Source of the DNA: Haplodiscus bocki
Taxonomy: Eukaryota
Direction: 5' to 3'
Assembly: GCA_965655095.1 (NCBI GenBank)
Contig: OZ296656.1
Coordinates: 15,624,001 to 15,688,000 of the forward strand
Length of the DNA stretch: 64,000 nucleotides
The position numbers and the translations under genes were made by a program. This document shows, piece by piece, positions 7,901 to 60,701 of this stretch. Within the stretch, counting starts at the first letter, position 1; each line of letters starts with the position of its first letter. The notes beneath the pieces are model-generated. The model was not told where the DNA came from. It worked only from the letters and a program-made list of their open reading frames with translations, and made no database searches.

Positions 7901-10315
7901 TGCCTGCGTCTGTAGTTGACACTTTAGGGAGAATTCAATACCTTTTATTTGACAATACATTCTGTGAATTTAGAATATAGAATTAGAATTAACGCTGTAA
8001 AGAGAATCGTTGTCTGCTACTTTGGTTCATATAATGTACGGAAAAACATAATGATAGACTTGAAAGATGTGGTGTTTGCCGAGAAAATTTGCAGGCATTT
8101 GAAGAAGTGGACTGGGTTGAAAACCTCATGGATAACTTACTACGGTCCTGATCTGGAACCAGCTCTGCCAGAGATGAATCGCACTGCGAGATCTTGTTAA
8201 GAATGCTTTGATTCAAAGATAGAACGTAATTAGGACCTATCATAGCTGGACACAAATGAAGTGTTAATTTCAATTTATAAATTTCTGCTTAGTTGTAGTC
8301 AAAAAAATCAGTAGTTTTCGTTGAACTGTGGAGCTTTCAAAAATCAGTTAAACTTGTTAGATTTGTTCACTAGTCTTCCGTTAGCTCAATTGTTGCGAAG
8401 CCCGGCTTCGCGTCTGTGTAAAAAGTTTCATCTATGGGAGGGCAACCGAGATGGCGATAAAAATCAAACAATTTATTGGCAGTAGCCGTGCAAGTTAACA
8501 AACAGATTGATTGGAGTGACCCTTTCTGATAAGCAGTGTCGCGGGTGTACTAAGTTAATTGTTTATTATTGTTTTCGCTAGCTAATATTGCTGAGCGGCG
8601 TGTGCGGCCATATGTCTGCGTTATCGTGTAAGAAAGTCTCAAAAGCTTACACTGTTATTAGCCTTGTAAATTTGCCTTGCTAAACCGCGCGAACAAAGTT
8701 GCGTAAGTTCTACTAGCAAGGACTTGGTGAGCAAAGAAGGAGTATGAAATAAGAGATGAATTATTTGGTGAATATACAGAAATGGCAGTCAACTTGTACA
8801 AAGTAAATGTGTACAAGATAAGATGAAATTTCCGATGGGTGAGATTATTAGGGGTGAGATTTGAGAAATCCAAATTATTAACTTTCAGCAGCCTCCTTCT
8901 AAATTTTATAAAGCAACTTCTACAAATTCACAACCATTATAATATCAATTTTAACTGTAATATATCAATTTTGTATCACACGACTGTAATGTAGAACAAG
9001 CAATTTTATCCCCGAAATCCAAAGAATTATTCTTCTATCCACTGTATATTTATTCCCTCGTCTAATATTCGAAGATATCAAGAAATTTCCAGCACAAAGA
9101 TATCAAACAGAAAGTATCCAAAATTTTACAATATCCAAAATATTCGAAGAAAGAATTTATAATAGATTCGAAGTTTATCGCATGATAAATTCGAAGATGA
9201 TAAATTCGAAGTTTAAGGCATCGCAGTTTTAATAAAGCATAATAAGTCAGATTTAATAATAAGTTTAGCTGAAATTTTTTATTATTCAAATAAATGGAGT
9301 AAAACAGTAATTGACAATATTAAACTTACAAATCTTCCCAAAAATTATTGGAAATGTTTATCATGAATAAGTTGAGGTAAGTTTTGGCAGTGTTTTTTAT
9401 TTTTGGAGCTAGGACGAATGGTTTCATTCGTTGTTTCTAGCTTGGCTTCTTTGCCTTTTGTACTTTTTTAGTTTTATCCCCTATGTTGTATGTAATCAGT
9501 TTAGCTAAGACTTCGGTAACATGCCATAAGGCAGTCAACCGAGTCAATTTCCTTAAGTTCCTCCTTTAGTCAAGTGTTGTCCACTGACGAGGCGCCTTCA
9601 AGTATTTCGCTTTTAGTTAGTAAATTTTCTGTTTTAGCCTTTTGTCTACAACTATGGTAACATTCATAAAGCAGTTAACCAAGTCAGGTCTCTTATGGTC
9701 CTCTTTTGGTCAAGTGTTAATCCACTGACGAGGCGCTTTCATGTATTTTCGCTTTTAGTTTAACGACTCAGTACTTGTTTAACATAGTAACTGGCCGAGA
9801 AATCTTAATCCCCTTTTTGTCCATACCGTGACATAGTCCTCGGATTTTGTTGGAGGGGTTTGAATTGTTTTAGCCTTTTAGATTTCATCTAAGACTCAGA
9901 GTTACTCGTATTCACGGTTACTGAGCTGTTTCTCTTAGGTTCCCTTGTCTCAGACGCGGTAGTTTACTCGCGTAATTGTTGAGTGGGTTTATCTTTTACT
10001 TTTGCAATTTTCGGATAACCAGTAGTTTATTAACTGACTGGGTTTGAAATGAAAAAATCTTCTAAGAATTTCTAGAAAGATTTACTCTACTAGCAATTGA
10101 AATTAGAAACTCACGGATACCATCGTTGAAGTTGAGAAAGGGTGTTGATGTTCGGGTTCTCTAGGTCTTTGGTGGCTGTTCGAGAATGTTGGAAGTTGCT
10201 CGCTGAGAAGCGGTAGAAAGTTAGAAGTCGAAGAGGAAGTCGAGAAGGGTTTCGCCTCGCGGATTTAAGCAGGTGAATTGTGGCAAGCGAATGAATACTA
10301 TGGAAGTGCGCGGGG

Positions 10316-10370
10316 TATTTATACCCGGATGGTTACGTGTCCTTTCAATTTTGGGCGAGAGCCAATAGGA
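10316..10370 (-). promoter_or_regulatory. CCAAT-box plus TATA promoter block in the LTR; paralogous block at ~11029-11070
   Basis: Minus strand CCTATTGG...GGGTATAAA followed downstream by GAGGCGAAAC; the same layout occurs in copy 2. Confidence 0.6.
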
Positions 10371-10420
10371 TCATTCGACGAGCGAATCGAAAGCAGGTAA
10401 GTTGGCTCTGTATAACAGAA

Positions 10421-10939
10421 GTTTGGCAAAGACAAGTTTAGGAATTGTTTTAGAATGATTCTAATTGAGCAGATGAAGAGATTTGGCAAAGACAGGTTTA
10501 GGAATTGTCTTAGAATGATTCTAATTGAGTAGATGAAGAGATTTGGCAAAGACAGGTTTAGGAATTGTCTTAGAAAAATTCTAGTTGAGTAGATGAAGAG
10601 ATTTGACAAAGACAAGTTTAGGAATTGTCTTAGAATAATTCTAGTTGAGTAGATGAAGAGATTTGACAAAGACAAGTTTAGGAATTGTCTTAGAATAATT
10701 CTAGTTGAGTAGATGAAGAGATTCGGCAAAGACAGGTTTAGGAATTGTCTTAGAATGATTCTGAGTAGATGAAGAGATTTGGCAAAGACAGGTTTAGGAA
10801 TTGTCTTAGAATGATTCTAGTTGAGTAGATGAAAAGATTTGGCATAGACAAGTTTAGGAATTGTCTTAGAATATTTCTAGTTGAGTAGATGAAGAGATTT
10901 GGCAAAGACAGGTTTAGGAATTGTCTTTGAATAATTCTA
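10421..10939. repeat. 60-bp tandem array in the 3' LTR (~8.7 units)
   Basis: Unit atttggcaaagacaggtttaggaattgtcttagaatgattctagttgagtagatgaagag; one 56-bp variant. Confidence 0.95.
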
Positions 10940-11181
10940 TGATTAGGATGAGGGCGAAGAGAAAGAGAGTTTCGCCTCGGGGAAGTAGGCTGTTTAACTG
11001 AAGAGAGTGATTGAATAAAACGACAGGGTTTATACCCAGTTATGGCGCAATCGAGTGATCGTCCAATAGGAGAGCGCCTGAAGATAGCAATGTTTGCTTT
11101 GGGATCATTTGATCGGCGAGGAGAGGTGAGGAGTGGCGGTTGTTCAGAATTGTTGGGGTTTTTGCGGGTAAGTCATAATTC

Positions 11182-11345
11182 GACTTAGAATATTTTCGCT
11201 GAAAGCGATTTTGCGGCCAAGTCAGAATTTGACTTAGAATATTTTCGCCGAAGCGATTTTGCGGCTAAGTCAGAATTTGACTTGGAATATTTTCGCTGAA
11301 AGAGATATTGCGGCTCAGTCAGAATTTGACTTAGAATAATTTCGG
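11182..11345. repeat. 48-49 bp tandem array (~3.3 units); second copy at ~17971-18134
   Basis: Unit gacttagaatattttcgctgaaagcgattttgcggccaagtcagaattt. Confidence 0.9.
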
Positions 11346-12140
11346 AGATCGAGAAAGGCAAGAGAAGAGGAAATTCCAAAGTTTTAAGAGTAGGAAAGAA
11401 GAGAAGAGGAGAGAGCAAGTTGTTGACGGTAAGCGAGTGAGTGATTTTATGATCTCTTCGGTCGTGCCAAATGACTCTAAAATGGCATCATGCTGTTTTT
11501 TCATGCCACCAATAGGAAAACAGCACATGTTCATGATGTCATACCTACTGGCCAATAGGCTGTTAGTAGATTTTGGGCAATTTCGAAAATTTAATTTTTC
11601 TTCAATTTCGTCATCAATTTGTGCAGTTCCAATCGAGTAACCTCCAAATTTCGTCAAGTCGCCGCAAAGTCGGCAAATATTTAACCCCAAATATAATCTC
11701 CAGTTTTGCCGTCGTATTGTCTGAGCTTTTGGGTTTTATCAGTTTTCTATTTCCTGGGTGACCAGGGACTTTTATTTGCGCCCAAATATTCGTCGCAGTT
11801 GTGCCGAAACTTCTGCTTGGTAAGTCAACTTTAATGCCGCCGTAATCTTTACTAGCTCGTATTTCCTGTATAATTAACAAATATACAAACTGCACTGATA
11901 AATTTTGGTGTTTATCTGAAATCTGATAAATCTTGGGCTCGCCATTTTGGGCAGAAATCTCTCGAGGTTAGTTTCAACTTTTCTTTATTATAAAATCATA
12001 AAACTGCGATTTTTCGTAAGGTTTGAGCGGTAGTCATAACGCGATAACTCACCCCACTGAAAAGGAACAAAATTTGATTTGGGGGCTCAAGGGAAAAGAA
12101 GGAGGGACTGGGTAGAGTTTAAAAAAGGCATCTAAAGAAA

Positions 12141-12815
12141 TTAAAGTCCTAAATGAGGAAAGGCAGCAACAGCTCCTTGGGGAACCGTGATGCATTGGGT
12201 AGACAAAGCTGGATTCTGAATAGTCAGTTCTTGCCGTTGGTTGTCCCAATGGATAATTTGCCAAGAGTTGAACTCGGGTTTCAAGCCATAGCGAAGTTGG
12301 GAGTTGATCCGTGGTCGGATAACTGCTGTCGGTTTCGAAACAAGAGAGTCGCTGCGATGTTGGTAGTTATGTACTGAATTAGCAGTCTTGGTGCGGTGCT
12401 CAAACTGATTGGGGCGCGGAAGAAGGGGGGTACAGTCAGTTGGAAAGGAATAAGCGGGTGGAAGCTCGTGTTGATACTCATTAGTGCCGTCTGCGCATTG
12501 TACGCCTGCAGTTGGTGAAGCTTCAACTGCGGGGTTGCTATCACTGGCTTCAACGGTGGAAGTGGAATCAGGACTAACTGGTTCGTCGTTCGAGATTTGG
12601 TTTGGAAGAAGCTTCAAAGGAGAAGTTGGGGGTGAAATAAACATCACTTCTGAGTCAGTGGACACGGCAGCACTAGAGGGTCGCACCAGTTCGTCGGGAC
12701 TTGATGGGTCCAAGGGTCGTAAATCCGAGTCCAGGTTTGAAAAGATAGCAAAGATGTTGTCATGAGAAGAGCAATCTTCAGTAGTCTCCGTCATGGAGTT
12801 CGATAGGTCTGGCAT
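12141..12815 (-). CDS. Pro/Ser-rich accessory ORF of the LTR element (unknown function)
   Basis: 224 aa; conserved with 38857-39471 (NIFAIFSNLD, LVRPS, ISPP, RPRINSxLRYGLKPE). Confidence 0.5.
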   Translation of the reverse strand: MPDLSNSMTETTEDCSSHDNIFAIFSNLDSDLRPLDPSSPDELVRPSSAAVSTDSEVMFISPPTSPLKLLPNQISNDEPVSPDSTSTVEASDSNPAVEASPTAGVQCADGTNEYQHELPPAYSFPTDCTPLLPRPNQFEHRTKTANSVHNYQHRSDSLVSKPTAVIRPRINSQLRYGLKPEFNSWQIIHWDNQRQELTIQNPALSTQCITVPQGAVAAFPHLGL

Positions 12816-14016
12816 CCTTAATTACAATCGAACTCTATCGTACCTGGCCAAAAACAAAGAATCATGTAACTGCAATCAAAAAGTGAACATTAGATTTCAA
12901 GAAACATAATCTCCCCCCGGAACCAAGTAAGTGGGAGAAAGGAAAAATAGCTGACTTGACCACCGGATTCCGAAGTGGAAAAGGTCTCTCTATTCTTTCA
13001 GAGGAAAAGCTATGGAAAATGCCGTAATATATTTTACCGGCTCTTCGCAGGCACTAACACGAAGTGTTAGCACTATATTTAAAGAGTCGCTACACTACTC
13101 TATTAAAACGACGCCGAGATTTTTATAAAGGACGCCGGACTGAAACCGGACGGTCAAAAGGTGCCAAATCAATCTAGCCTCTTCCGTAACTATATCAAGA
13201 TTAATAAAGTCTGTCAGCCTATTTTCAGGCTGTCTGTCATGGTGATTTGAGAGTAATATAGTCTGAAAAGCCTCGTCAGGCTTGCAAAATATGTGTGGGC
13301 CCTTTAAATATAATTCGGATAGAGGAAGAATAAGTAACTTGTTGAAGTAAACGTTAGAAAAATTTTGTAATTATCAGCTTGTTCCAGGGTTCTATATTTG
13401 ATGTGAAGATTGTTCCCACTTAGTTAGACTGAAAGCGCGTGGACTGTTGATCAGTGACACCTCGTGAAATACCCCAAGGTCTTTGTCCGTAATCAAGAGA
13501 ATCGTCCAGGCTTTGGTTTTCCCCGTTCGTCCAATTTTCGGAGATATCTAAGGTCACAAAGAGGCTGGCGAAATCTTCTTTTCAGGCTATTATGGGTACA
13601 AGTATCGCAGCGAGTAGATTCTCAACAAGCCCAAATCTAACTTTGGAGAATGCTTTTGGCAGGTTTTCAAAAGCTGGATGGAAAGGTTCTAAAGATTGTC
13701 CATCATGAATATGTGCTCCCAATGAAGTATCTTTGGTTTCCACTTGCAGAGAAGAGTTAGTTCTGAGTTTCTGGTTGGTTTTTCGTATGGCCAGGGCCAT
13801 TCGAAGATATCGGAGTTTACGTCAGAGATTCCAATAAGCTTCGCGAAGATATTTTTTGTTAGGGGACCTTGTATCCAGGCATTTTGACGGAGGTTAGGAT
13901 GTGACGATTACTTGTAGGATAATTCATAAGCAATAGGAACATACCATCAAATAACATTAAGAGTCATAAAAAAATAATGAGACAATAAACCATACAAAAT
14001 GATTTTTTTAAAGGCT

Positions 14017-15012
14017 TCAGTAGCCCAATGGAAGCGGGTCAGACAGTTCATCGTCAGACTCTCCAGCTGAGGTGACTTGTGCCACATTAAAATTCATGCC
14101 ACTGTTCCTTGAAAAGGATCTTCGTTCACGTGGAGTGATTTCGTTAGATTCATCTTGCCCGGTTTCTTCTTCGGTAGTTAGAGGAAGTTCGTTCGTTGGA
14201 TTGTGCCCATCGTCCGAATTAAGACATTGTTCCACGTTTTGATCGTATTGGGCACTGCGGTCGACGGCACTAGTGCCAATGTTCTGGTTAGGAACATGAT
14301 TACTTTTGGAGGACATTTCATATTGTATTTTTTGTATTTCTTCGTCTCGCATTTTTTTGCGACACCATTTTGGTGTGTGTCCGTTTTTATGACAATAGTC
14401 ACAGAACCGGACAGTTTTTTGCTTTTCCTTTTTTGTCGGAGCCCATGGTCTAGATTTTTCTTCCATGGCAATAAGTCGGTATTCCTGAAGTTCTACTCGG
14501 AGGTTTCTCTTTTCTTGACCCAGTGTGGCCAGTTCAATCTTGATTTGTTCCACATCATGTAGGAAATTCGAAGATACTTGTAACATTAGATCTTGTTGAA
14601 TATTATGAGTAGAAAAGTCATTCCGGGTAGCGTTTGGGTACTCCATTAATTGTTCTCGGGCCTTTAGCTGTAAATAATTTGGTTTAAGTCCTCGCAAATT
14701 GTAGTCCATGTACTTTTGCTTTTGTTGTCTTTTTTGTGTTGTTCGTTCTGCATTTTCTTGGGCATTTGGGATACCATTCGTATCATCAGGCCAACAATGT
14801 TCAACTTCCAATCGATGGCGAAACTTATTTCGTCCCTCTGAGCATCTAGTAATGAAGTTCATTTTCAGTCCATTCCTCAAGGTGGTTGCTTCGGTCAGTT
14901 GTAAAAAAGATTCAGCATCTATATTGGGTTCGGTGCAGGAGAACTTGTCTGAGGCTGCGTAAGGATAGGCGAGATGAATAGCAGTTATTGTAATAAATAT
15001 CAAAAGAGACAT
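14017..15012 (-). CDS. gag: Gag-like protein with coiled coil and CCHC zinc knuckle
   Basis: Uninterrupted ~331 aa ORF just after the PBS; CDYCHKNGHTPKWC is CX2CX4HX4C; homologous to the disrupted ORF in copy 2. Confidence 0.75.
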   Translation of the reverse strand: MSLLIFITITAIHLAYPYAASDKFSCTEPNIDAESFLQLTEATTLRNGLKMNFITRCSEGRNKFRHRLEVEHCWPDDTNGIPNAQENAERTTQKRQQKQKYMDYNLRGLKPNYLQLKAREQLMEYPNATRNDFSTHNIQQDLMLQVSSNFLHDVEQIKIELATLGQEKRNLRVELQEYRLIAMEEKSRPWAPTKKEKQKTVRFCDYCHKNGHTPKWCRKKMRDEEIQKIQYEMSSKSNHVPNQNIGTSAVDRSAQYDQNVEQCLNSDDGHNPTNELPLTTEEETGQDESNEITPRERRSFSRNSGMNFNVAQVTSAGESDDELSDPLPLGY

Positions 15013-15084
15013 CACCCATAAAAATATAGCTCCGAAGCAAACTGCACAATTTATAAAATAAAATCAAAATTGCTCACAAATGAG

Positions 15085-15101
15085 CCTCACTGGTCGCACC
15101 A
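15085..15101 (-). promoter_or_regulatory. Primer-binding site TGGTGCGACCAGTGAGG
   Basis: Starts 3 nt after the LTR-terminal CA and is identical in copy 2. Its complement CCTCAC-N7-ACCA resembles a tRNA 3' end (possibly elongator Met; inference). Confidence 0.8.
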
Positions 15102-15104
15102 GTT

Positions 15105-18100
15105 TGTCGTGGGTGTACTAAGTTAATTGTTTATTATTGTTTTCGCTAGCTAATATTGCTGAGCGGCGTGTGCGGCCATATGTCTGCGTTATCGTGTAAG
15201 AAAGTCTCAAAAGCTTACACTGTTATTAGCCTTGTAAATTTGCCTTGCTAAACCGCGCGAACAAAGTTGCGTAAGTTCTACTAGCAAGGACTTGGTGAGC
15301 AAAGAAGGAGTATGAAATAAGAGATGAATTATTTGGTGAATATACAGAAATGGCAGTCAACTTGTACAAAGTAAATGTGTACAAGATAAGATGAAATTTC
15401 CGATGGGTGAGATTATTAGGGGTGAGATTTGAGAAATCCAAATTATTAACTTTCAGCAGCCTCCTTCTAAATTTTATAAAGCAACTTCTACAAATTCACA
15501 ACCATTATAATATCAATTTTAACTGTAATATATCAATTTTGTATCACACGACTGTAATGTAGAACAAGCAATTTTATCCCCGAAATCCAAAGAATTATTC
15601 TTCTATCCACTGTATATTTATTCCCTCGTCTAATATTCGAAGATATCAAGAAATTTCCAGCACAAAGATATCAAACAGAAAGTATCCAAAATTTTACAAT
15701 ATCCAAAATATTCGAAGAAAGAATTTATAATAGATTCGAAGTTTATCGCATGATAAATTCGAAGTTTAAGGCATCGCAGTTTTAATAAAGCATAATAAGT
15801 CAGATTTAATAATAAGTTTAGCTGAAATTTTTTATTATTCAAATAAATGGAGTAAAACAGTAATTAACAATATTAAACTTACAAATCTTCCCAAAAATTA
15901 TTGGAAATGTTTATCATGAATAAGTTGAGGTAAGTTTTGGCAGTGTTTTTTATTTTTGGAGCTAGGACGAATGGTTTCATTCGTTGTTTCTAGCTTGGCT
16001 TCTTTGCCTTTTGTACTTTTTTAGTTTTATCCCCTATGTTGTATGTAATCAGTTTAGCTAAGACTTCGGTAACATGCCATAAGGCAGTCAACCGAGTCAA
16101 TTTCCTTAAGTTCCTCCTTTAGTCAAGTGTTGTCCACTGACGAGGCGCCTTCAAGTATTTCGCTTTTAGTTAGTAAATTTTCTGTTTTAGCCTTTTGTCT
16201 ACAACTATGGTAACATTCATAAAGCAGTTAACCAAGTCAGGTCTCTTATGGTCCTCTTTTGGTCAAGTGTTAATCCACTGACGAGGCGCTTTCATGTATT
16301 TTCGCTTTTAGTTTAACGACTCAGTACTTGTTTAACATAGTAACTGGCCGAGAAATCTTAATCCCCTTTTTGTCCATACCGTGACATAGTCCTCGGATTT
16401 TGTTGGAGGGGTTTGAATTGTTTTAGCCTTTTAGATTTCATCTAAGACTCAGAGTTACTCGTATTCACGGTTACTGAGCTGTTTCTCTTAGGTTCCCTTG
16501 TCTCAGACGCGGTAGTTTACTCGCGTAATTGTTGAGTGGGTTTATCTTTTACTTTTGCAATTTTCGGATAACCAGTAGTTTATTAACTGACTGGGTTTGA
16601 AATGAAAAAATCTTCTAAGAATTTCTAGAAAGATTTACTCTACTAGCAATTGAAATTAGAAACTCACGGATACCATCGTTGAAGTTGAGAAAGGGTGTTG
16701 ATGTTCGGGTTCTCTAGGTCTTTGGTGGCTGTTCGAGAATGTTGGAAGTTGCTCGCTGAGAAGCGGTAGAAAGTTAGAAGTCGAAGAGGAAGTCGAGAAG
16801 GGTTTCGCCTCGCGGATTTAAGCAGGTGAATTGTGGCAAGCGAATGAATACTATGGAAGTGCGCGGGGTATTTATACCCGGATGGTTACGTGTCCTTTCA
16901 ATTTTGGGCGAGAGCCAATAGGATCATTCGACGAGCGAATCGAAAGCAGGTAAGTTGGCTCTGTATAACAGAAGTTTGGCAAAGACAAGTTTAGGAATTG
17001 TTTTAGAATGATTCTAATTGAGCAGATGAAGAGATTTGGCAAAGACAGGTTTAGGAATTGTCTTAGAATGATTCTAATTGAGTAGATGAAGAGATTTGGC
17101 AAAGACAGGTTTAGGAATTGTCTTAGAAAAATTCTAGTTGAGTAGATGAAGAGATTTGACAAAGACAAGTTTAGGAATTGTCTTAGAATAATTCTAGTTG
17201 AGTAGATGAAGAGATTTGACAAAGACAAGTTTAGGAATTGTCTTAGAATAATTCTAGTTGAGTAGATGAAGAGATTTGGCAAAGACAGGTTTAGGAATTG
17301 TCTTAGAAAAATTCTAGTTGAGTAGATGAAGAGATTTGACAAAGACAAGTTTAGGAATTGTCTTAGAATAATTCTAGTTGAGTAGATGAAGAGATTTGAC
17401 AAAGACAAGTTTAGGAATTGTCTTAGAATAATTCTAGTTGAGTAGATGAAGAGATTCGGCAAAGACAGGTTTAGGAATTGTCTTAGAATGATTCTGAGTA
17501 GATGAAGAGATTTGGCAAAGACAGGTTTAGGAATTGTCTTAGAATGATTCTAGTTGAGTAGATGAAGAGATTTGGCATAGACAAGTTTAGGAATTGTCTT
17601 AGAATAATTCTAGTTGAGTAGATGAAGAGATTCGACAAAGACAGGTTTAGGAATTGTCTTAGAATGATTCTGAGTAGATGAAGAGATTTGGCAAAGACAG
17701 GTTTAGGAATTGTCTTAGAATAATTCTATGATTAGGATGAGGGCGAAGAGAAAGAGAGTTTCGCCTCGGGGAAGTAGGCTGTTTAACTGAAGAGAGTGAT
17801 TGAATAAAACGACAGGGTTTATACCCAGTTATGGCGCAATCGAGTGATCGTCCAATAGGAGAGCGCCTGAAGATAGCAATGTTTGCTTTGGGATCATTTG
17901 ATCGGCGAGGAGAGGTGAGGAGTGGCGGTTGTTCAGAATTGTTGGGGTTTTTGCGGGTAAGTCATAATTCGACTTAGAATATTTTCGCTGAAAGCGATTT
18001 TGCGGCCAAGTCAGAATTTGACTTAGAATATTTTCGCCGAAGCGATTTTGCGGCTAAGTCAGAATTTGACTTGGAATATTTTCGCTGAAAGAGATATTGC

Positions 18101-18836
18101 GGCTCAGTCAGAATTTGACTTAGAATAATTTCGGAGATCGAGAAAGGCAAGAGAAGAGGAAATTCCAAAGTTTTAAGAGTAGGAAAGAAGAGAAGAGGAG
18201 AGAGCAAGTTGTTTACGGTAAGCGAGTGAGTGATTAAATGATCTCTTCGGTCGTGCCAAATGACTCTAAAATGGCATCATGCTGTTTTTTCATGCCACCA
18301 ATAGGAAAACAGGGCATGATCGGCATGTCATACCTACTAGCCAATAGGCTGAGAGTAGATTTTGGGCAAATTTTGAAAATTCAGATTTTCTTGAATTTCG
18401 TCATCAAGTTGTGCAATTCCACTTGAGTAATCTCATAACTCGCCCCTGTCGCCATAATGTCGGCAAATATTAACCAGCAAACATAATCTCCAGTTTTGCC
18501 GTCGTATTGTCTTAGTTTTTGGGTTTTATCAGTTTTCTGTTTCCTGGATGACCAGGGACTTTTATTTGCGCCCAAATATTCATCGTAGCTGTGCCGAAAC
18601 CTCTGCTTGGTAAGTCAACTTTAATTCCGCCGTAATCTTTACTAGCTCGTATTTCCTGTATAATTAACAAATATACAAACTGCACTGATAAATTTTGGTG
18701 TTTATCTGAAATCTGATAAATCTTGGGCTCGCCATTTTGGGCAGAAATCTCTCGAGGTTAGTTTCAACTTTTCTTTATTATAAAATCATAAAACTGCGAT
18801 TTTCCATTAGGTTTGAGCGGTAGTCATAACGCGATA
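15105..18836 (-). repeat. 5' LTR of copy 1 (3732 bp)
   Basis: Near-identical to 8537-12046. The 222 bp length difference is almost entirely four extra array units (+236) minus a 15-bp duplication at ~9182-9211. Confidence 0.93.
16974..17728. repeat. 60-bp tandem array in the 5' LTR (~12.7 units)
   Basis: Same unit as 10421-10939; two 56-bp variants. Confidence 0.95.
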
Positions 18837-33999: not shown

Positions 34000-34055
34000 C
34001 CTATTGGTTGCATGATCGACATGCTCGGTCACGTGACCAAACGGGGTATAAATAC
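34000..34055 (+). promoter_or_regulatory. LTR promoter: inverted CCAAT, palindromic E-box GGTCACGTGACC and TATAAA
   Basis: cctattgg at ~34000, ggtcacgtgacc at 34027-34038, gtataaata at 34046-34054. Confidence 0.65.
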
Positions 34056-34184
34056 CCACCGCTCAGCCACAAATTTCAGAAGCTCGCTCCCGCTCACTTG
34101 CCTTATTACCCGAGGCGAAACTCTTTTACCCTAAACTTCTCTTCTCTTCTTACTTTACCAATTCCCCTCTTCTTTTGGAGCGAG

Positions 34185-36447: not shown

Positions 36448-36465
36448 TGGTGCGACCAGTGAGGC
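36448..36465 (+). promoter_or_regulatory. Primer-binding site TGGTGCGACCAGTGAGGC
   Basis: Starts 3 nt after the 5' LTR end; identical to copy 1. Confidence 0.8.
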
Positions 36466-36526
36466 ATTCCTAAAGTGAGCAACAGTTTCTTGGTGCAGTT
36501 TTTTTGGAGCTATATTTTTATGTGCT

Positions 36527-37537: not shown

Positions 37538-38856
37538 AGCCTCCAAAGTCTCTTTTATAATTTCCATTTTCATCTTATACCCTCTTTAATCTTTTTATTT
37601 TTTTCTAATTATCATTGATTTCAATTCCCTTCCTGTTTACGCCTCCCCTAACCACCGTCACTATAAATGAATTGAAAAACCTGCCAACAACGACGACATC
37701 GCAGTTACTTGGTATCTCTGATGTGAATTGCGAGATCTTCGAATATTATGCCCTGGCCATACAAAAGAAACGAACCCGAAAACCAGAACTAACTCTTTGC
37801 TGCAAGTGGAAACCAAGGATACTTCCATGGAAGCACATATCCAAGATGGACAATCTTCAGAACCTTTTTATCCAACTTTCAGAATCCTGACCAAATTACT
37901 CATCAAAATCAGATTTAGGATTGTTGAGATTCTACTCGTTGCACGCCACGAGATGTCACAGATCAACACCCTACTCGCTCTCGCCAACATCTATGACATC
38001 CGAAGGAGAGCACAAAGTCTTTGGGATTACTGACGGGAACTCCCTTCAAGTCAGAATCCGGATTGTTGCGAATCTACTCGCTGTAATACTTAAACCCATA
38101 ACAGCCTAAAAAGAAGAGTTCGTCAGCCTCTTTGTGACCCTAGATATTTCCGGGATATTCGACGATGGGAAAATCAAAGCCTGGACGATCCTCTTGATTA
38201 AGGACAAAGACCTTGGGGTATTTCACGAGGTGTCACTGATCAACAGTCCACCCACTTTCACTCTAACTAGGTGGGAACAGTCCTTACATCAAATATACCA
38301 CCTTGGAACAAGCTGGTAATTACAAAGACTGAGGACTGACAAGCCTCCTATCACTCTTGCATGGATGCAATATAACATTTTCTTCAACAAAAAACTTATT
38401 CCTCTATCCGAATTTCAACTAAAGGGCCCATACATCTTATTTCGCTAGCAAGCACAAGAATCGAGCCTGACGAGGCTCTCCAGACCATATAGTTCTCAAA
38501 CCACAACGACAAACAGCCTGAAAGGAGGCTGACAGACTTTATTATTCTTGATATAATTTACGGAAGAGGCTGATTTGATTTGGCACTTTTTTTTGCACCC
38601 TTTATAAAAATCTCGGCGTCGTATTATTGGAGCTCTGCTAAAGTTTTAGCTCCCACTTTATGCCAGTGCCCATATAGCTTTTTCCTTACATAGGATCCTC
38701 CACTAACACACTTAGTGATGAAGGTATTTTTCTTTTTAATCCTCGTGCTTCAAACCCAGGTTCTTTACACTGTTATTTCCCACTTGCTTGGTTCCAGGGA
38801 TAGAGTATGTTTCACGGAACCTAATGTTCACATTTTGACTGCAGATAGATGATTTT

Positions 38857-39471
38857 TTGTTTTTGGCCAGGTGCGATACAGTCCGATTGACATCCATGAT
38901 ACCAGATCTACCGAACTCCATGGCAGAGACCACCCAAGACTGCTCTTCTGCAGACAATATCTTTGCTATCTTTTCAAACCTGGACGCGGATTTACTACTC
39001 TTGGATCCATCAAGCCCCGACAAACTGGTGCGACCCTCTCGTCCTGCTGTGCCCACTGACCCAGAAGTGATAATCATTTCACCTCCAAATTCTCCTGTAA
39101 CGTATCTGTCCAACCCTGCCTCAACTGGTGGACAACACAGCCCTGATTCCACTTCTACCCTTGAAGCCAGTGAAAATGACATTATAATTGACATTCCACC
39201 ACCCGCAGACATAGAATTACTGGCAAACAACAGTAATGAGGAACAACACGAGCTTCCAACCGCCTATCCCCTCCCAACCGATAGTAGCCCTGTTCTATCG
39301 CGCCCCAATCAATTTAAACACCGCACGGAGACTGCTAATTTAGTCAATAGCCGCCAACACCGCATAGAACAGTTTGCTTCAAAACCTACAGCAATTATCC
39401 GGCCACGGATCAACTCCCGTCTTCGCTATGGCCTGAAACCAGAAATCGACTCATGGAAAATTATCTTTTAG
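38857..39471 (+). CDS. Pro/Ser-rich accessory ORF of copy 2
   Basis: Homolog of 12141-12815. Confidence 0.5.
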   Translation: MFLARCDTVRLTSMIPDLPNSMAETTQDCSSADNIFAIFSNLDADLLLLDPSSPDKLVRPSRPAVPTDPEVIIISPPNSPVTYLSNPASTGGQHSPDSTSTLEASENDIIIDIPPPADIELLANNSNEEQHELPTAYPLPTDSSPVLSRPNQFKHRTETANLVNSRQHRIEQFASKPTAIIRPRINSRLRYGLKPEIDSWKIIF

Positions 39472-39728
39472 GATACCCAACGAAAAGAACTGACTATTCA
39501 GAATACATCCTTACCACCTCAACGACTTGTGGTTCCCCAACAGGCTGTCACTGTTCTCCCTCATCAAGACGCATGACAAACTGGTGCGACCCTAGAACAA
39601 ATTTCGAATTACCCAAACCGGTGCGACCAAAGATTCTTGCAATATTGCCTTCTGCAACTCAATCCCGCACTTCCTCTCTTCTCCTAGAACCCCCGAATCA
39701 AATTCTTCTTCTTTTCAGCGGGGTGAGT

Positions 39729-42700
39729 TATCGCGTTACAGAGAACGCTCAAACCTCAGAAAAGACGCTATTTCCTAAATTAAAGTTAACGAAAGAGTTA
39801 AACTAACCTCAAGAACTTTCGGTGATAAATGAAGACCTCGAGAATTTGTAATTCTCAGATAAATACCCGAAGTGATTAATGCAGTTTGTTTATTTGCTAT
39901 TTAAACTTGACTTGCGAAATTTACGAGATTACGAAAGAATTAATATTTGACTTACCCGGATGGCAGACTGAACTTAAGAAACGCGGTTGGGCGAAACAAA
40001 CAAAAGTCCCTGGCAGGCAGGGAACGGGGGATAGATAAGTTGGACAAATTGGCTACAAGGTTGATATGAAAGTTTACAAATAAATATTGGTAGACTTTAC
40101 GACGGCAAGATTAAATTGACTGAGAGCTCGTTTTACGAAGTTGAAATTGCACAATTTCAAGATTTAATTTTACAAAAATGAAAAATTATAATTCGCCCAC
40201 CCTAGCGGGATTTTCCTATTGGTTGCATGATCGACATGCTCGGTCACGTGACCAAACGGGGTATAAATACCCAGCGCTCAGCCACGAATTTCAGAAGCTC
40301 GCTCCCGCTCACTTGCCTTATTACCCGAGGCGAAACTCTTTTACCCTAAACTTCTAACTTCTCTTCTTATTTTACCAATTCCCCTCTTCTTTTGGAGCGA
40401 GCGAAAATATTCTAAGACAATTCCAAATTGTGTCTGAGCCAAATTCCAATAGCATTTTACCGAAAATAATCTAAGACAATTCCAAATTGTGTCTTAGTAA
40501 AATTCCAATTGCTTCTTATCGAAAATATTCTAAGACAATTCCAAATTGTGTCTTAGCCAAATTACAATTGCATCTTACCGAAAATATTCTAGAACAATTC
40601 CAAATTGTGTCTTAGCCAAATTCCAATTGCATCTTACCGAAAATATTCTAAGACATTTCCAAATAGTGTCTTAGCCAAATTCCAATTGCATCTCACCGAA
40701 AATATTCTAAGACAATTCCAAATTGTGTCTTAGCCAAATTCCAATTGCATCTTACCGAAAATATTCTAAGACAATTCGAAATTGTGTCTTAGCCAATTTC
40801 CATTTGCATCTTATCGAAATTATTTTAAAACAATTTCAAATTATCAGTGTTATCCTTCCTGGACCACTCAACGAAAATTTCACTCTGCAATCAACTCAGC
40901 TCCGGTATTCGCAAGTCCCCACTTTGCTTTGATCTAGTAGAGTTAATCTCACTGATCTTTTTCTCCTAAATAATCCTGCTCGATAAATCGCGAAGGAACT
41001 GCCGTGTTCGAGTGAAAGGACTAAGAGAAAATCACCGGGTGCCGCTTGCAGCGAGCTATACCTGAGCAGTAGATAAAAACTAAAATATTCAACCCCTCCA
41101 ATAAATCCGGACGATTCATTCACGGTTGGAAATAAGGAGGATTTAAGATCTGCGCCCAGTTGCTATGCTAAGGCAGGTTACTCGGGTTTAAATTAAAGGC
41201 TAAAAGAACAACTTAATCCTAAAAGTAAAATCCATGTAAACTCCTCGTCAGCGGTTCACGCTTGACCAAAAAGAGGACTTAAGGGATTTGACTCGGTCGA
41301 CTGCTTTTATGGCATGTTACCTAAGTCTTAGATAAAATCTGATATCCCGTCTGATAATTACCCAAGATTTAACTTGGTTCGGACCAAATTGGGATTTAAG
41401 GGACTTGACCTGGTCGACTGCTATTATGGCATGTTACCACGGTCTTAGATAAAATTGAACCACATAACATCAGTGAAACCTAAAAGTAAAAGAGAGAAAA
41501 AGAAAGGCACAGCCTGGACTAGAAAAGACGAATGTAATCTTTCGTTCTTGCCAAAAATCCAAAAACGTATACCTCAACCTAGTTTTAAATCTGACAAAAA
41601 TTTCCAACTTCTTTTTGGAAAGATTTGTATTTTTATATTATTGATTATTATTCTCATCTATTTATTCATTTAAAGAAAATTGAATGAATTTAGTCCACTC
41701 ATATTATTTGATAAAATTTTTACGAAGTATTTTTTCTTGTGCAATTTTCATCTTACTTTAATGCAGCACTGGAACATAAGCAGGATATGAATGTGACGCA
41801 GGTTAATCCCGCGCCACCTACAGTAATACCCGAAAGCCTATTCAATCTCAAGGAAACCTCCGGATTCCGCGAGCCCACTGATCTGCGCTCAAAGTTGACT
41901 AGGGCTCCAGGAATCAAACTGGGCTAACCAGGCCCGTTTTATCCGACTCGTCAATTTACTGTACCCAGTTATAAGAGCATACAGTTGTTCTATTATCATT
42001 GTCTGGTAACTGAGAACTCTCTTCTCCCAGTTGGAACCGTACATAATTATAAAGAATTGTTTGAAATTATCAGTAATCTCCGGTTCCTGTACAACGTATC
42101 CGATGCTTCCTCATGAAACTTGTGACTGTGGCCCATTCGTCTAATGTCTCAACATCTACGCGATAATATAATCCCAGAAAGTGATCATGATCTTCATCGG
42201 GAACGACCGGTGAAGGAGTCATCTCTTCTTGAGGCATATGTTCTGGATGGCCTAACGGAATTTCAATTCCCAGTCTCTGATTATTTGGAACTTGCTCATT
42301 CAAAGGAGGAGATCGCGGAGAATCATTATTAGCTGACATTTGTAATAAACTTTGATTTTAATAATTTGTAATAATTTCCGAAGTTCAACTGAAAAAGATT
42401 AATACGGTGTTTAAATTATCTAACTTGCTCAAATCTTGCCCCTACTAATCTCACCCCTCCGATATTTAATCTTATCTTATGCTCATTTACATTTGTAAGA
42501 TTGTCTACTATTTCCGTATATTCGCCAAATAATTCATCTATTTATCTGTACCTTTTCTTTGCTCACTAAGTCCTTGCCAGTAGAACTTACGCAACTTTGC
42601 TCGCGCGTTGTGGCAAGGCAAATTTACAAAGCTAATAACGGTGTAAGCTTTAGAGACTTTCTTACACGATAACGTATGCTTATGGCCGCACACGCCGCTC

Positions 42701-42780
42701 AGCAATTTTAGCTAGAGCGAACAATAACAGATATACTTGACACGTTGTTCAATAAACAACACCCCCCTGTACGCGCGACA
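39729..42780 (+). repeat. 3' LTR of copy 2 (3052 bp)
   Basis: Termini TATCGCG...CGCGACA; preceded by the PPT-like GCGGGGTGAG; carries an extra ~115-120 bp hairpin unit at ~41305-41424. Confidence 0.93.
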
Positions 42781-57385: not shown

Positions 57386-58369
57386 AAGAAATGTTTCTGA
57401 CTAACCCCAATATAATCTTCTGAAAATTCTAAGATTTTGTTGTTTCTAGTACTTTCGTTCAAAATGTTTATTTTCAAACTTATACGTCCATAAAATTGAC
57501 TTGTGCACCAAAGTTGTCGCATTAACCTAAATCATGATTGTTTTTACTAACCCAGTAAAGTAACAGTCTGTCTAATTTTACTGGGAGTCATTTTTCCAGT
57601 CCAATTTTTCCATTTATCACTTTTGAAAAAACTAGTAAAAGAGAATAATCTCACAATTTGATTTAGATCAACTTCACGATCCCCCTCCTCCAAAATGTAG
57701 CGAGGTGGAGATAATGCACTAGATTAGGTTGTCGTAGTCGTATTAAATTTCATCTCGATTGTGATGCAGGTTGGGGGGGGGGGGGGTTGAATATGGAGTA
57801 GGTGCATGTGCAGCACGGAGATTGTGAATTTCATCTTTAAACCTTTTTTTGGTGTTTTTTTGAAAATCAGTCAGGCCACTTTTTGAGAAGTTCTAATTGC
57901 CTTAGTTAAACATGCATTTCACCATTTTTTTGAAGTTTGGTCAAAACTTCCAGAATTCATGGAAATATTGAGAGAGCTTTGTAGGTGCTTTTTTGTAGCT
58001 TTCGATCTCCGAAACGTCTGGCTTTTGGCTTTATCAGAAAAATTCATGAGTGGCGGTGGAACAAAAATTCGACTGACAACCGATTCCCATGTTTTCAGAT
58101 AGGGTATAGCCAAAAATTTTAGTTTAAGTTGTTTGTAGTGTTTCAGAGAAAATCATGTTTGAGATGTCCATACCGAAAAATTGTACCAAAAACTTTTTCG
58201 TTATTTTTCATGGATCATAAGTTTAAAACTCTGAGAATTTTTAATTTTATAGATTTTTCTCCAAAGTTTTGGATTGTACAGGAAAGTTAAACTTGATTAT
58301 TGACTATAACTGAAATTGGACCGGCGGTTATTTTTTCGGGGTTGTTTAAATAATACTCCGACATTTACT

Positions 58370-60701
58370 TGTCGCGGGTAGAACTTGTGAAAAACCGGAA
58401 GTTTTTGTCCTTATTTCATCAGAGATCGTAATTTACCAAATATCCTTTTTTTGGTTCAGTCACCACAGCGGTGAATGTGAAAGCTGGTTTTAAACAAAAG
58501 CAAGAAAGTCTCAGTAAGCTTACCACTGTGTATTTTAGCTTTTGTGCCTTGCCAATTGCGCGAACAAAAGTGCGTAAGTTCATATGGCAAGGACTTTAGA
58601 GCGGTAAATGGTAGATAGAAAACCAACGGTTGAATTCACAGTTTACGAATTAAATGGTAGCAACAGAACAACTTGACAGCAACAACTGGGCGAAATGAGG
58701 GGCTTGAGCGGTAAAGGGATTGCATCTTGGTACGAGAAATTGGGAACGCTTTACGACTCAAACTCCATTTGCTGCAGGAAACGATATTCAACTTTCGACT
58801 CAAAATCATTTTTTTTAAAAAAAAAATTGTTCCGAATGCAAATTGGAAGTAATATTCAAACGCTTTTTCTTGGAAACTGAATTGAGATCATTCAGCTCGT
58901 TGTGTGACTCGTTTGTCACTTAAATTGAAAAAAAAATTAATTAACCGATCTTGGTAAAACAATCCAAGAATCAAAAACAATTTGCTAACTGATATCTTTT
59001 AGGATATAAACCAAAAACAGTGAATGTATCCTTTATAATCCTTTTTTGTTGAGAAAAATGGTCTGAATTGATCAGGTAAGCAAATTATGAGAATTCCGGC
59101 TACCGAGAACCGTTCAATGTTTACTTTTTCTAGTGCTGTTGATATTTAACTTCAGCTATGTTAATTTCAGCCTCTACCGTAACTATCATCTATTATATAA
59201 TAATTGAAAAGTTTTATCTACACTCAGTAGCTGGCACTAGGCTCACATACCGGTTAACATCTTAGGGCTCCCTTATATTCGTCCGGCGATCAAGATAACA
59301 GGATCAAGCCTCTCTGCGTACGGTAACACATGCATTTTTGCTTTTTAAGAGTTTTAAAAAGGTAGACCCAACACCAATAACCAGTTTTATCTAGGACTTG
59401 GTAAGGTGCATTACGCAGTCTACCGAGAGAGTTCTCTTAGGGTCCGTTTATTCGTCAGCGTTCGAAGTCCGAAGACCAATCAAGCCGGGCAATACGAACA
59501 GGAATGTTAAATGTAATTAATTTTTTTTGGGAAATGAGGTTAGGAAAGGTAATAAAGTTAGGTTAAAGTTATTTAGGTAAATTTAATGGGGTTAAGTTAG
59601 TTAAATTAAAAAGTTGGGTTGAGGTAAGAAACCAGCATCAATTTTTATTTCTGCAGCCTTTACGCTGAACTAAAACGCCTGTACCGCGGTGACGCCGCCA
59701 ACGGGGTTGAGGCTCCAATTTTCTCCTTTTTCCAAGCGAGACAAAAGTCTATCGGATTTCTGGAAGAGCATTTTAGTTGGAAAGGGATGAAATAAATTAT
59801 TCAAAGAAATAATTCGGTCCGGTCCGATCAATTGGTTTATTGAACTCGTTACTAACGGATTTCATTGTTTAAATCAAGGCACAAGTTGAAACTGAATGAG
59901 ATTACTTTTTACAAAAAGGACGTGTTCTGCATATTTGGACCATATATAGGAATTTAGAATGAACTCTAAATTGCCACAGCAGCAGACGAGGTGAGACTTA
60001 GTTTATGTAATCTCTTTTGAGGAACCTCTTGAGGGTTGTGCAGTTTGAGATTCACTCCTGCTTCCGAACCGAAGTTCGTGCGCGGATTCCGCACACGTTA
60101 ATACCGAAGCTGGCGTTAGTAGACACTGTTTAGACTCCAGTGGCAAGAGTATGGAATGGATTAGTGAAGATAGGGTTTTTTCTTCAGTCAGAAAAATAGT
60201 TGGACTTAGAATGTTTTTGTAGAACTGTAGAATTGAATTTTGCTAAGACACTTTTTGATTTTGTCTTAGAATGTTTCTCTGATTCTGTGAATTTGAGACG
60301 AGGTTCTAGATCAAGAATAATTTTGAAGAACAGATGAGAGGTGGTGGCGGCAAAAATTGAGAAATTCAAATTGAGGAGAGACTCTCGTTCGTTAAGCGGG
60401 AAAAACGAGTTTTGTCGTTGACTTGGCGTCAGTGATTTTCAATAACAAAACCATGCTGCCAGTTCATGGTAATAATGAGGGAACGGCATGCACCAAGCAT
60501 GTTGGTAACAACTGGAGCCAGTAGAAAAATGACGAGCCGTGAAAAACTTGGAATTGTTCATAAAATTGGAATTGTGTAATCCCAATTATCAAATTCTATC
60601 ACCAGCTTTTTTCGATATCCTTTGTGCCCTTTGTCCTCTGCCCGTCATCACCTTAAGGGTTAGTTAGTAATTCAGTGTTTAGCATTACTCGTAATGCGAT
60701 A
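58370..60701 (-). mobile_element. Solo LTR (2332 bp) of a third, diverged subfamily of the giant-LTR element
   Basis: Minus-strand termini TATCGCA...CGCGACA; TSD TACT (58366-58369 / 60702-60705). Shares the CCTTGC...GCAAGG block, the hairpin units and array remnants (cttagaatgttt at ~60206 and ~60265). Confidence 0.85.

What the first reader, a model, noticed from the sequence alone, without database searches (positions are those of the whole stretch)
8537..60701. Family of pol-less retroelements with modular giant LTRs, present as three diverged subfamilies
Seen: two full copies and one solo LTR share termini, a 4-bp TSD and LTR module order; the two full copies also share the PBS. LTRs are 2.3-3.7 kb and make up about two thirds of each full element. 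The ~3 kb interior has Gag-like and accessory ORFs but no protease, RT or integrase core. In element sense the LTR order is promoter block(s), tandem array(s), ~130-bp hairpin units, variable cargo, conserved stem, AATAAA. Known: Gag-only non-autonomous LTR elements (TR-GAG/LARD type) exist, mainly described in plants. Inference: this is a parasitic or helper-dependent lineage whose LTR acts as a multi-module RNA/DNA cassette. Near-identical LTR pairs imply recent mobilisation in trans.
Basis: partly seen in the sequence, partly recalled or inferred. Interest (0 to 1): 0.8.

Follow-up and report, generated by a model that had tools for sequence, protein, structure and literature searches.

The report
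Helper-dependent retrotransposon with capsid-gutted Gag
This is an abundant animal jumping-gene family that lacks its own copying enzymes but keeps, under selection, a shortened packaging protein and very long end-repeats with an uncatalogued repeated RNA hairpin, so it probably rides on the particles of a related element.

Summary
Both have 2.9-3.7 kb LTRs, TA...CA ends, 4-bp TSDs, the same PBS and no pol domain. The 2.3 kb solo LTR is related but shares only part of the module order, and its interior is unknown.

The element is a Ty3/Gypsy-type non-autonomous family. Its Gag lacks two in-frame blocks (about 45 and 22 aa) of the capsid region. The deletions are family-wide: 78 of 120 listed database relatives carry both. 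The shortened Gag is still under purifying selection (omega about 0.5, p ≤ 5e-4) and keeps its zinc knuckle.

A second ORF travels with the deleted Gag and ends in a possible integrase-tail-derived SH3-like module (weak evidence). The LTRs carry a repeated ~62-nt hairpin with compensatory changes and no Rfam match. LTR-pair differences are patchy, so they do not date the insertions simply.

Best reading: a helper-dependent satellite whose shortened Gag helps its own RNA into helper particles. It works like IAP 1Δ1, LARD or TR-GAG but fails the TR-GAG and LARD definitions. No helper was identified. Verdict: new variant of a known kind; interest 0.5.

The parts
8537..18836 (-). Element E1, 10,300 bp, flanked by the 4-bp TSD GCAG (8533-8536, 18837-18840); lies antisense in a host intron
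15105..18836 (-). E1 5' LTR (3732 bp), TATCGC...CGACA; 60-bp array x12.7 at 16975-17728, 49-bp array at 17949-18133, four hairpin units at 16053-16496
15084..15101 (-). E1 primer-binding site, 18 nt, identical to E2's; tRNA identity not tested
14017..15012 (-). E1 gag-derived ORF, 331 aa, open; lacks P0090 residues ~42-87 and 121-142; keeps the CX2CX4HX4C knuckle; hydrophobic N-terminal leader
12816..14016 (-). E1 middle region: no ORF shared with E2 and no codon-position signal, yet 81-91% identical to E2 in its central blocks (more conserved than synonymous sites); possible cis-acting RNA
12141..12821 (-). E1 second ORF ('ORF3', 226 aa stop to stop): about 160 aa of low-confidence Ser/Pro/acidic sequence plus a ~60-aa predicted SH3-like beta module, possibly derived from an integrase tail
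12679..12691 (-). Internal copy of the LTR-end/PBS junction inside E1 ORF3
12047..12062 (-). E1 purine-rich tract before the 3' LTR (also reads as acceptor + 4 nt + donor)
8537..12046 (-). E1 3' LTR (3510 bp): promoter-like blocks at ~10967-11070 and ~10247-10369, 49-bp array 11160-11344, 60-bp array 10422-10939, hairpin units 9500-9943, 3' stem ~8672-8725, AATAAA 8562-8567
33514..42780 (+). Element E2, 9267 bp, 4-bp TSD TTTT (low complexity)
33514..36444 (+). E2 5' LTR (2931 bp): 59-bp array 34185-34625, three hairpin units 34801-35121
36448..36465 (+). E2 primer-binding site
36527..37537 (+). E2 gag-derived ORF with the same two deletions; broken by in-frame stops at codons 18 and 190 of 336
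38839..39471 (+). E2 second ORF; ends at a premature in-frame stop about 35 codons before the usual end (my notebook entry 2 called this a frameshift; that was wrong)
39023..39628 (+). Three internal copies of the LTR-end/PBS junction in E2 (39023-39035, 39579-39591, 39616-39628)
   Evidence: 6 matches in the window including the 2 true PBSs; 0.02 expected
39729..42780 (+). E2 3' LTR (3052 bp): promoter-like block ~40215-40338, 59-bp array 40402-40842, four hairpin units 41018-41454, cargo ~41678-42338, 3' stem ~42568-42621, AATAAA at 42751
41787..42329 (+). ORF-like stretch in the E2 LTR cargo (181 codons, 3 in-frame stops); no Pfam match
58370..60701 (-). Solo LTR S (2332 bp), TSD TACT; hairpin units 59385-59445 and 59212-59271, one array-type unit ~60205-60276, 3' stem region ~58502-58621; lacks the promoter-like motifs and the terminal AATAAA

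Best explanation
A high-copy, non-autonomous LTR retrotransposon family derived from a Ty3/Gypsy-type lineage and mobilised in trans. It is a satellite of a related element rather than a pair of decayed copies.

Shown: LTR/PBS/purine-tract/TSD anatomy; no pol domains; one ancestral double deletion in the Gag capsid region, spread through the family; purifying selection on the shortened Gag; a linked second ORF; recombination with intact-capsid relatives; a repeated covarying LTR hairpin.

Inferred steps:
(1) A promoter in the first 0.5-1.8 kb of the LTR and a poly(A) signal 30 nt from its end give an RNA with an unusually long R region (about 2-2.5 kb) that contains the hairpin units.
(2) The shortened Gag cannot build a shell alone. 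It keeps the later capsid helices, a helical segment and the zinc knuckle, binds its own RNA and helps load it into particles built by an intact Gag, in the way the IAP 1Δ1 fusion protein aids its own RNA in cis.
(3) Helper protease, RT and integrase prime at the PBS and integrate the cDNA with a 4-bp TSD.
(4) The hairpins, arrays and extra PBS-junction copies are multiplied cis signals for packaging, dimerisation or priming that compete for the helper's machinery.

Confidence is about 0.9 for non-autonomous trans-mobilisation and about 0.45 for the specific Gag-adaptor role.
For: -: 175 proteins with E ≤ 0.001 among 827 candidates, 120 listed.
-, of the 120: 78 carry both deletions (280 member sequences), 14 carry the second with the first not covered, 13 are intact at both, 2 are intact at the second only, 12 are uninformative, 1 is partial.
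- the 24 deleted Gags used (of 78), plus P0028, form one branch (100/99) next to P0090-type intact Gags. P0028 is 77-82% like P0090 before residue 143 and 88-95% like deleted P0013 after it, so it is a recombinant, as expected if the RNAs are co-packaged.
- 14 of the 40 most conserved core positions of 15 divergent intact Gags lie in the 68 deleted residues. The Pfam Retrotrans_gag match of P0090 (residues 70-141) is lost in E1 Gag.
- E1 vs E2 gag omega 0.54/0.49 (p 5e-4 / 8e-5), shifted frames 1.42 and 1.01; knuckle intact in 31 of 34 full-length deleted Gags (34 of the 78 kept).
- 27 of 78 double-deleted Gag representatives share a contig length with an ORF3 representative, against 0 of 13 intact ones (Fisher p 0.009).
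- 2 of 120 Gag representatives read in from the same LTR end and PBS; 6 of 104 ORF3 representatives read out into the same LTR start.
- hairpin pairs 79% formed, 16 cells changed on both sides, 0 of 500 shuffles as high; slid controls 29-43% paired.
- IAP 1Δ1 precedent: PMC6466679 passage.
Against: - No pol-bearing helper with the same termini or PBS was seen; only proteins, not genomic DNA, could be fetched for other copies.
- About 0.5 kb of the middle region (E1 13023-13510) is not bridged by any database ORF, so absence of pol in other copies is inferred, not read.
- E2 has two stops in gag and one in ORF3, yet parts of its LTR pair are identical. It seems to have moved without working proteins of its own, which weakens a strict cis-adaptor role.
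- Omega rests on one pair of copies, and 0.5 is weak constraint. ORF3 omega is 0.72 and not significant (p 0.13).
- The hairpin structure was chosen by me from the same 10 related sequences, so the controls overstate support.
- The integrase-tail link of ORF3 is weak: profile-profile E 0.43 and 0.15; not significant in the reverse HMM direction; 1 of 4 target proteins beat shuffles.
- TSS, R and U5 are not measured.
Confidence: 0.6

Rival explanations
1. LARD-like: only the RNA matters. The ORFs are vestiges kept half-open for RNA-level reasons (translation protecting the RNA, overlapping cis signals), and the element is packaged by helper Gag alone.
For: E2 carries stops in both ORFs yet looks recently inserted. 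The non-coding middle (JC 0.225) is as conserved as non-synonymous sites (0.22-0.23) and more than synonymous sites (0.42-0.45). Many database copies are fragments. ORF3 selection is not significant.
Against: Frame-specific purifying selection on gag; knuckle residues 94-100% conserved; clusters of 28, 56 and 15 members keep the ORF open across 30-40% amino-acid divergence.
Confidence: 0.2
2. The shortened Gag is an interference or restriction factor like Ty1 p22: it poisons assembly of helper or rival particles and so limits or redirects them.
For: Loss of the front part of the capsid with retention of the later helices and knuckle parallels p22, the C-terminal half of Ty1 Gag that inhibits particle assembly (PMC4599808 abstract; deletion mapping).
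Against: The family is itself abundant (at least 280 member sequences) and depends on those particles, so poisoning them should cost it. The ORF sits in mobile copies, not at one domesticated locus.
Confidence: 0.14
3. E1 and E2 are independent deletion derivatives or assembly chimeras of an ordinary autonomous Gypsy family whose typical copies carry pol.
For: An assembly gap lies 250 bp from E1's 5' end (N run 19088-19223). LTR pairs are mosaic. E2's TSD is low-complexity.
Against: Identical deletion points in 78 of 120 relatives; one branch; collinear interiors; matching 4-bp TSDs at all three insertions; junction read-throughs in other copies.
Confidence: 0.04

Closest known systems
[quoted passage not shown]
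   Same: LTRs, PBS and PPT with a gag ORF and zinc knuckle but no PR/RT/RH/IN; multi-copy
   Different: TR-GAG is under 4 kb with one ORF, a capsid-matching Gag, TG...CA ends, a 5-bp TSD and ~485-bp LTRs in TR-GAG1. Here: 9-10 kb, two ORFs, capsid blocks deleted, TA...CA ends, 4-bp TSD, 2.9-3.7 kb LTRs, animal host.
LARD (large retrotransposon derivatives; defined in passages of PMC4350172 and PMC6431247)
   Same: Over 4 kb, non-autonomous, conserved non-coding internal sequence
   Different: [quoted passage not shown]
Mouse IAP 1Δ1 (PMC6466679, passage read)
   Same: A fixed internal-deletion subtype that needs Gag and Pol in trans, amplifies successfully, and whose shortened protein is reported to help its own RNA in cis. 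This is the best functional analogue.
   Different: IAP is a class II endogenous retrovirus with a gag-pol fusion from one 1.9-kb deletion. Here there is a Ty3/Gypsy-type Gag with two small in-frame deletions, a stop after gag, a separate second ORF and very long modular LTRs.
Ty3/Gypsy (Metaviridae) Gag lineage in the same collection: P0090 (399 aa), P0293/P0440 (478-495 aa), P0185/P0186
   Same: Direct source of the Gag (44-47% identity to P0090-type); PF03732 in intact relatives; weak matches to Ty3 and Arc chains. P0185/P0186 are a parallel design: intact Gag + acidic spacer + integrase C-terminal SH3, with no PR/RT/RH/IN-core Pfam hit.
   Different: Those keep the capsid blocks. Whether the P0090-type elements carry pol is untested.
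Ogre (long-LTR Ty3/Gypsy; PMC6431247 passage)
   Same: LTRs of 1.9-6.5 kb and extra ORFs of unknown function
   Different: Ogre encodes its own pol in an 11-13 kb interior.
Retrozymes (search listing and abstract starts only)
   Same: Non-autonomous LTR elements with structured RNA in the LTR
   Different: No hammerhead core in these LTRs and no Rfam ribozyme match; retrozymes are small and non-coding.
Ty1 p22 (PMC4599808, abstract and outline read)
   Same: Truncated Gag lacking the front part
   Different: p22 comes from an internal transcript of an autonomous element and inhibits it. Here the truncation is the only Gag of a separate family.

Membership tests
LTR retrotransposon (order) | Direct terminal repeats, PBS after the 5' LTR, purine tract before the 3' LTR, TSD | tested here: met
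   the purine tract is short and contains pyrimidines
LTR retrotransposon (order) | Canonical TG...CA termini | tested here: not met
   All five LTRs are TA...CA. Non-canonical ends are known in other families (PMC5659011, search listing only).
Ty3/Gypsy (Metaviridae) | Gag of the Retrotrans_gag/Ty3 type with a single CCHC knuckle | tested here: met
   Met through homology to intact relatives (PF03732 at E 1.3e-6 for P0090); the window's own Gag no longer matches PF03732
Ty3/Gypsy (Metaviridae) | pol with order PR-RT-RH-IN and RT phylogeny | not testable with these tools
   No pol in E1/E2; helper DNA not obtainable
TR-GAG | Length under 4 kb | tested here: not met
   10,300 and 9,267 bp; definition
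TR-GAG | Single ORF encoding Gag with capsid similarity | tested here: not met
   Two ORFs; capsid blocks deleted; no Pfam capsid hit
TR-GAG | No PR, RT, RH or IN domains | tested here: met
   with positive control
TR-GAG | 5-bp TSD and TG...CA ends | tested here: not met
   4-bp TSD at 3 of 3 insertions
LARD | Over 4 kb and non-autonomous | tested here: met
LARD | Internal coding regions lost | tested here: not met
   Open 331-aa gag in E1, omega about 0.5
IAP 1Δ1-type derivative | Shortened protein acts in cis to aid retrotransposition | not testable with these tools
   Needs experiment
IAP 1Δ1-type derivative | In-frame gag-pol fusion ORF | tested here: not met
   gag ends in a stop, followed by a non-coding region
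Retrozyme | Hammerhead ribozyme in each LTR | tested here: not met
   Simple core descriptor: 0 hits in 5 LTRs on both strands; Rfam none at gathering score and no ribozyme family at E ≤ 10 in the 3 LTRs scanned
Integrase C-terminal SH3 (GPY/F) module, for the ORF3 tail | Sequence and fold homology to the integrase CTD | tested here: inconclusive
   HMM of 10 integrase tails: 16 of 48 ORF3 tails above 5 bits vs 0 of 960 shuffles, but the reverse direction was not significant. Fold Z 5.4, rmsd 2.9, 51 aligned to RSV integrase, tied with many unrelated SH3/Tudor/KOW rows. The sequence and fold registers disagree.

The most novel reading that the evidence does not exclude
A tiered retroelement parasitism in an animal. 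Autonomous Gag-Pol elements support an intact-capsid, probably pol-less family (P0090 type, 277 members; it shares this family's short Gag tail and post-gag reading). That family in turn supports this one, which encodes its own capsid-less Gag adaptor and a stand-alone integrase-tail protein to hijack particles and integration complexes. It also carries in a kilobase-long R region an uncatalogued structured RNA (packaging signal or self-cleaving motif) and decoy primer-binding junctions.
Probability: 0.15. Interest if true: 0.8.

Novelty: new variant of a known kind. Interest (0 to 1): 0.5.

Why it matters
Non-autonomous LTR elements are mostly described in plants and mammals, and are usually non-coding or keep a whole Gag. 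A family that fixed capsid deletions, kept the remnant under selection and reached hundreds of copies offers a natural test of which parts of Gag suffice to recruit an RNA into another element's particle. It also supplies a repeated, covarying RNA motif that can be tested directly in vitro. Domain-based annotation would miss such elements, since neither ORF has a Pfam hit.

Tried and rejected
- Rfam: nothing at gathering score in the window; only weak, unrelated matches at E ≤ 10 in three LTRs. Hammerhead descriptor: 0 hits. Resemblances of the hairpin to twister, pistol, hairpin, HDV or H/ACA motifs, recalled from memory, did not fit the topology and were dropped.
- ARAGORN found no tRNA gene in the window, so the primer tRNA is unidentified.
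- Search for Gag-Pol fusions of 700-2000 aa found only 2 proteins among 3391 candidates, neither with RT. This is weak evidence, since gag probably ends in a stop in this lineage.
- ORF3: no Pfam family for the E1 copy, no PDB sequence match, no usable Atlas hit for P0187, no Foldseek match at E ≤ 0.001, and VIA Z ≤ 5.9 without a standout. An integrase-tail HMM found no significant hit in 642 six-frame chunks of the window.
- Complex prediction of shortened Gag with intact Gag gave no verdict (score 0.01, alignments not used); it is not evidence either way.
- The decayed pol-bearing element at ~51.8-57.4 kb was considered as helper and rejected: no similarity to this family's Gag or LTRs.
- The middle region was tested as a hidden ORF: no frame shows a synonymous excess.
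- No cluster member read carried a name, so the host is unassigned. An acoel host is my recalled lead only.
- Unchecked: Dfam/Repbase (no tool), the closed viral and metagenome collections, genome-wide DNA, signal-peptide prediction, and Atlas look-alikes of the E2 cargo ORF. No supplements were read; repeat libraries in genome-paper supplements could already contain this family.
- Ten literature searches listed no paper describing this architecture.

Full report
1. Observation. Self-comparison of the window and inspection of the ends give two complete elements and one solo LTR. E1 spans 8537-18836 in minus sense (LTRs 3732 and 3510 bp, interior 3058 bp, TSD GCAG). E2 spans 33514-42780 in plus sense (LTRs 2931 and 3052 bp, interior 3284 bp, TSD TTTT). 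S spans 58370-60701 in minus sense (2332 bp, TSD TACT). All five LTRs start TATCGC and end CGACA; all three TSDs are 4 bp and none extends to 5. E1 and E2 share an 18-nt PBS three bases after the 5' LTR. LTRs make up 70% and 65% of the elements. E1 and E2 are about 75% identical over 2540 aligned LTR columns and 64-89% along the interior.

The host is an animal. Exons at 624-1128 and from 24571 match TGF-beta-family type I receptor kinases, with phase-matched splice sites at 1129 and 24570, so E1 lies antisense in a 23.4-kb intron. That the host may be an acoel is my recall only; no record read carried a name. Acoel genomes are reported to be rich in LTR elements (passages of PMC9911081 and PMC6451197).

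2. No pol. Pfam scans of all 12 interior frames and 9 LTR sense frames, read with X at stops, gave no retroelement enzyme hit. The same scan found RNase H and an integrase zinc domain in an unrelated decayed element at 51.8-57.4 kb, which serves as a positive control.

3. The Gag. The E1 ORF (331 aa from ATG 15012) found 175 relatives among 827 candidates, 120 listed. They fall into a ~330-aa form and a 389-399-aa form with PF03732. Alignment shows that the short form, including E1 and E2, lacks two in-frame blocks, about P0090 residues 42-87 and 121-142. Of the 120 listed, 78 have both deletions (280 member sequences, fragments included), 14 have the second with the first uncovered, 13 are intact at both (297 members, 277 of them in P0090's cluster), 2 are intact at the second only, 12 are uninformative and 1 is partial. 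The deleted blocks hold 14 of the 40 most conserved core positions of divergent intact Gags, and over half of the PF03732 match (residues 70-141). I infer that the protein cannot form a normal shell.

On a tree of the shared region (40 rows: 24 of the 78 deleted forms, 11 intact, 5 outgroups; bootstrap not fully settled), the deleted forms plus P0028 form one branch (100/99). Strict monophyly of the 24 is rejected (p-AU 5e-5), and P0028 is the only intact row inside the branch; its segment identities mark it as a recombinant of an intact front and a deleted-family back. E1 and E2 diverged after the deletions, so their comparison tests selection on the short form: omega 0.49-0.54 (p 8e-5 to 5e-4), shifted frames 1.0-1.4, and the knuckle intact in 31 of 34 full-length forms (counting method gave 0.49, interval 0.36-0.67). 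Against this, E2's gag has stops at codons 18 and 190, and the estimate rests on one pair.

4. The second ORF. It found 104 relatives among 513 candidates. 27 of 78 double-deleted Gag representatives share a contig length with one, against 0 of 13 intact Gags (p 0.009). This is a proxy, and a diverged homolog in intact-Gag elements could have been missed. Six of 104 read out into the same LTR start, and 2 of 120 Gags read in from the same LTR end and PBS. The first 160 aa are predicted disordered; the last 60 model as an SH3-like barrel (pLDDT 67) with Z about 5-6 to many SH3, Tudor and KOW folds, retroviral integrase C-terminal domains among them but not above them. Sequence similarity to the integrase tails of related elements is visible but mixed: profile-profile E 0.43 and 0.15; 16 of 48 tails above 5 bits against 0 of 960 shuffles in one direction and nothing in the other; 1 of 4 targets significant. 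I put integrase-tail origin at roughly 0.6. Omega is 0.72 and not significant. A parallel family (P0185/P0186) joins an intact Gag, an acidic spacer and a clear integrase C-terminal module with no enzyme domains.

5. The LTR. E1 has two blocks CCTATTGG...GGGTATAAA...GAGGCGAAAC, E2 one and S none. Arrays of 49, 59 and 60 bp share a CTAAG-based inverted repeat, of which S has one unit. A 59-63-nt hairpin unit occurs 17 times in the five LTRs and nowhere else in the window: scores 41-68 bits, next best 14. Ten of the 17 trained the model and the other 7 are their LTR twins. For a 10-pair structure, 79% of cells pair and 16 cells change on both sides, above all 500 shuffles and all slid controls, but I chose the structure from these sequences. 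No Rfam family fits and no hammerhead core is present. A 3' stem is shared by all three elements. AATAAA lies 30-31 nt from the end in E1 and E2 but not in S. If these signals are used, R is about 2-2.5 kb long and contains the hairpins; this is inference.

The LTR-end/PBS junction is copied inside the interiors: 6 matches including the two true sites, with 0.02 expected. The corresponding peptide is in 24 of 79 ORF3 representatives spanning the site. The non-coding middle is more conserved than synonymous sites and shows no coding signal.

6. Age. LTR-pair differences are clustered far beyond chance. E1 has 48 of 56 in LTR positions 211-623 and 5 in the remaining ~2.9 kb after position 623. 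E2 has none in the first 545 bp and 68 of 76 in 546-1887. The clean parts suggest recent insertion. The patches point to gene conversion, strand transfer between different templates, or assembly mixing; a gap lies 250 bp from E1.

7. Mechanism. Most likely a non-autonomous satellite mobilised in trans (about 0.9), whose shortened Gag helps its own RNA into particles made by an intact Gag (about 0.45), by analogy with IAP 1Δ1 (PMC6466679 passage). Rivals are RNA-only LARD-like mobility with vestigial ORFs (0.2), a Ty1 p22-like interference factor (0.14; PMC4599808 abstract), and independent deletions or artefact (0.04). The helper is unidentified. P0090-type Gags share this family's short acidic tail and post-gag reading, unlike the 478-495-aa Gags, so they may themselves lack pol; this is untested.

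8. Comparison and novelty. It works like TR-GAG, LARD and IAP 1Δ1. It fails TR-GAG on size, ORF number, capsid, TSD and termini (PMC4350172 passages), and fails LARD on retained coding. A recent plant survey argues that these labels blur into one category of non-autonomous LTR elements with modular reshuffling (PMC13570524 passages), and long LTRs are known in Ogre (PMC6431247 passages). Ten searches listed no description of this architecture; Dfam, Repbase and paper supplements were not seen. What is unusual is the combination: a family-wide capsid-gutted Gag still under selection, a linked second ORF, duplicated primer junctions and an uncatalogued repeated hairpin. Verdict: real; a new variant of a known kind; interest 0.5.

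Noticed in passing
window 624-1128 and 24571-25139 (+): Two exons of a TGF-beta-family type I receptor kinase, joined across a phase-matched 23.4-kb intron that holds E1 antisense.
   Followed up: partly
window ~51800-57450 (+): Old, heavily frameshifted pol-bearing LTR element (knuckle, RNase H, integrase zinc domain; 65% direct repeats at 51820-52011 and 57157-57383), unrelated to E1/E2.
   Followed up: partly
proteins P0185, P0186: A second non-autonomous design: intact Gag fused to an acidic spacer and an integrase C-terminal SH3 module, with no enzyme domains; 6 members in P0186's cluster.
   Followed up: partly
protein P0090 cluster (277 members): Very abundant intact-capsid Gag with a shortened tail and the same post-gag reading as E2; may itself be a pol-less family.
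   Followed up: partly
window 12047-12062 (-) and 39713-39728 (+): The purine tract also reads as a splice acceptor, 4 nt and a splice donor just before the 3' LTR, conserved in E1 and E2.
   Followed up: no
window 14950-15012 (-): The Gag begins with a hydrophobic leader of about 20 aa from an ATG upstream of the start used by many intact relatives; it resembles a signal peptide, but no predictor was available.
   Followed up: no
window 41787-42329 (+) and its twin in the E2 5' LTR: ORF-like cargo of 181 codons with 3 stops, GC 41% against 28-34% for the other cargo regions; no Pfam match.
   Followed up: partly
window 9640-9735 and 9500-9592 (-), ~41243-41337 (+): A second small stem-loop (CCTCGTCAG...TTGAC...GAGG) precedes some hairpin units in E1 and E2 but not in S.
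   Followed up: no
window 19088-19223: Assembly gap (136 N) 250 bp from E1's 5' end.
   Followed up: no
window 63506-63886 (+); 62760-62925; 1415-1660; 6751-7206: Other repeat-like pieces: an ORF start with no Pfam match near the window end, a 61-bp tandem repeat, a palindromic 29-bp repeat region, and an ORF resembling a non-LTR retrotransposon tail (my impression; no Pfam hit).
   Followed up: no
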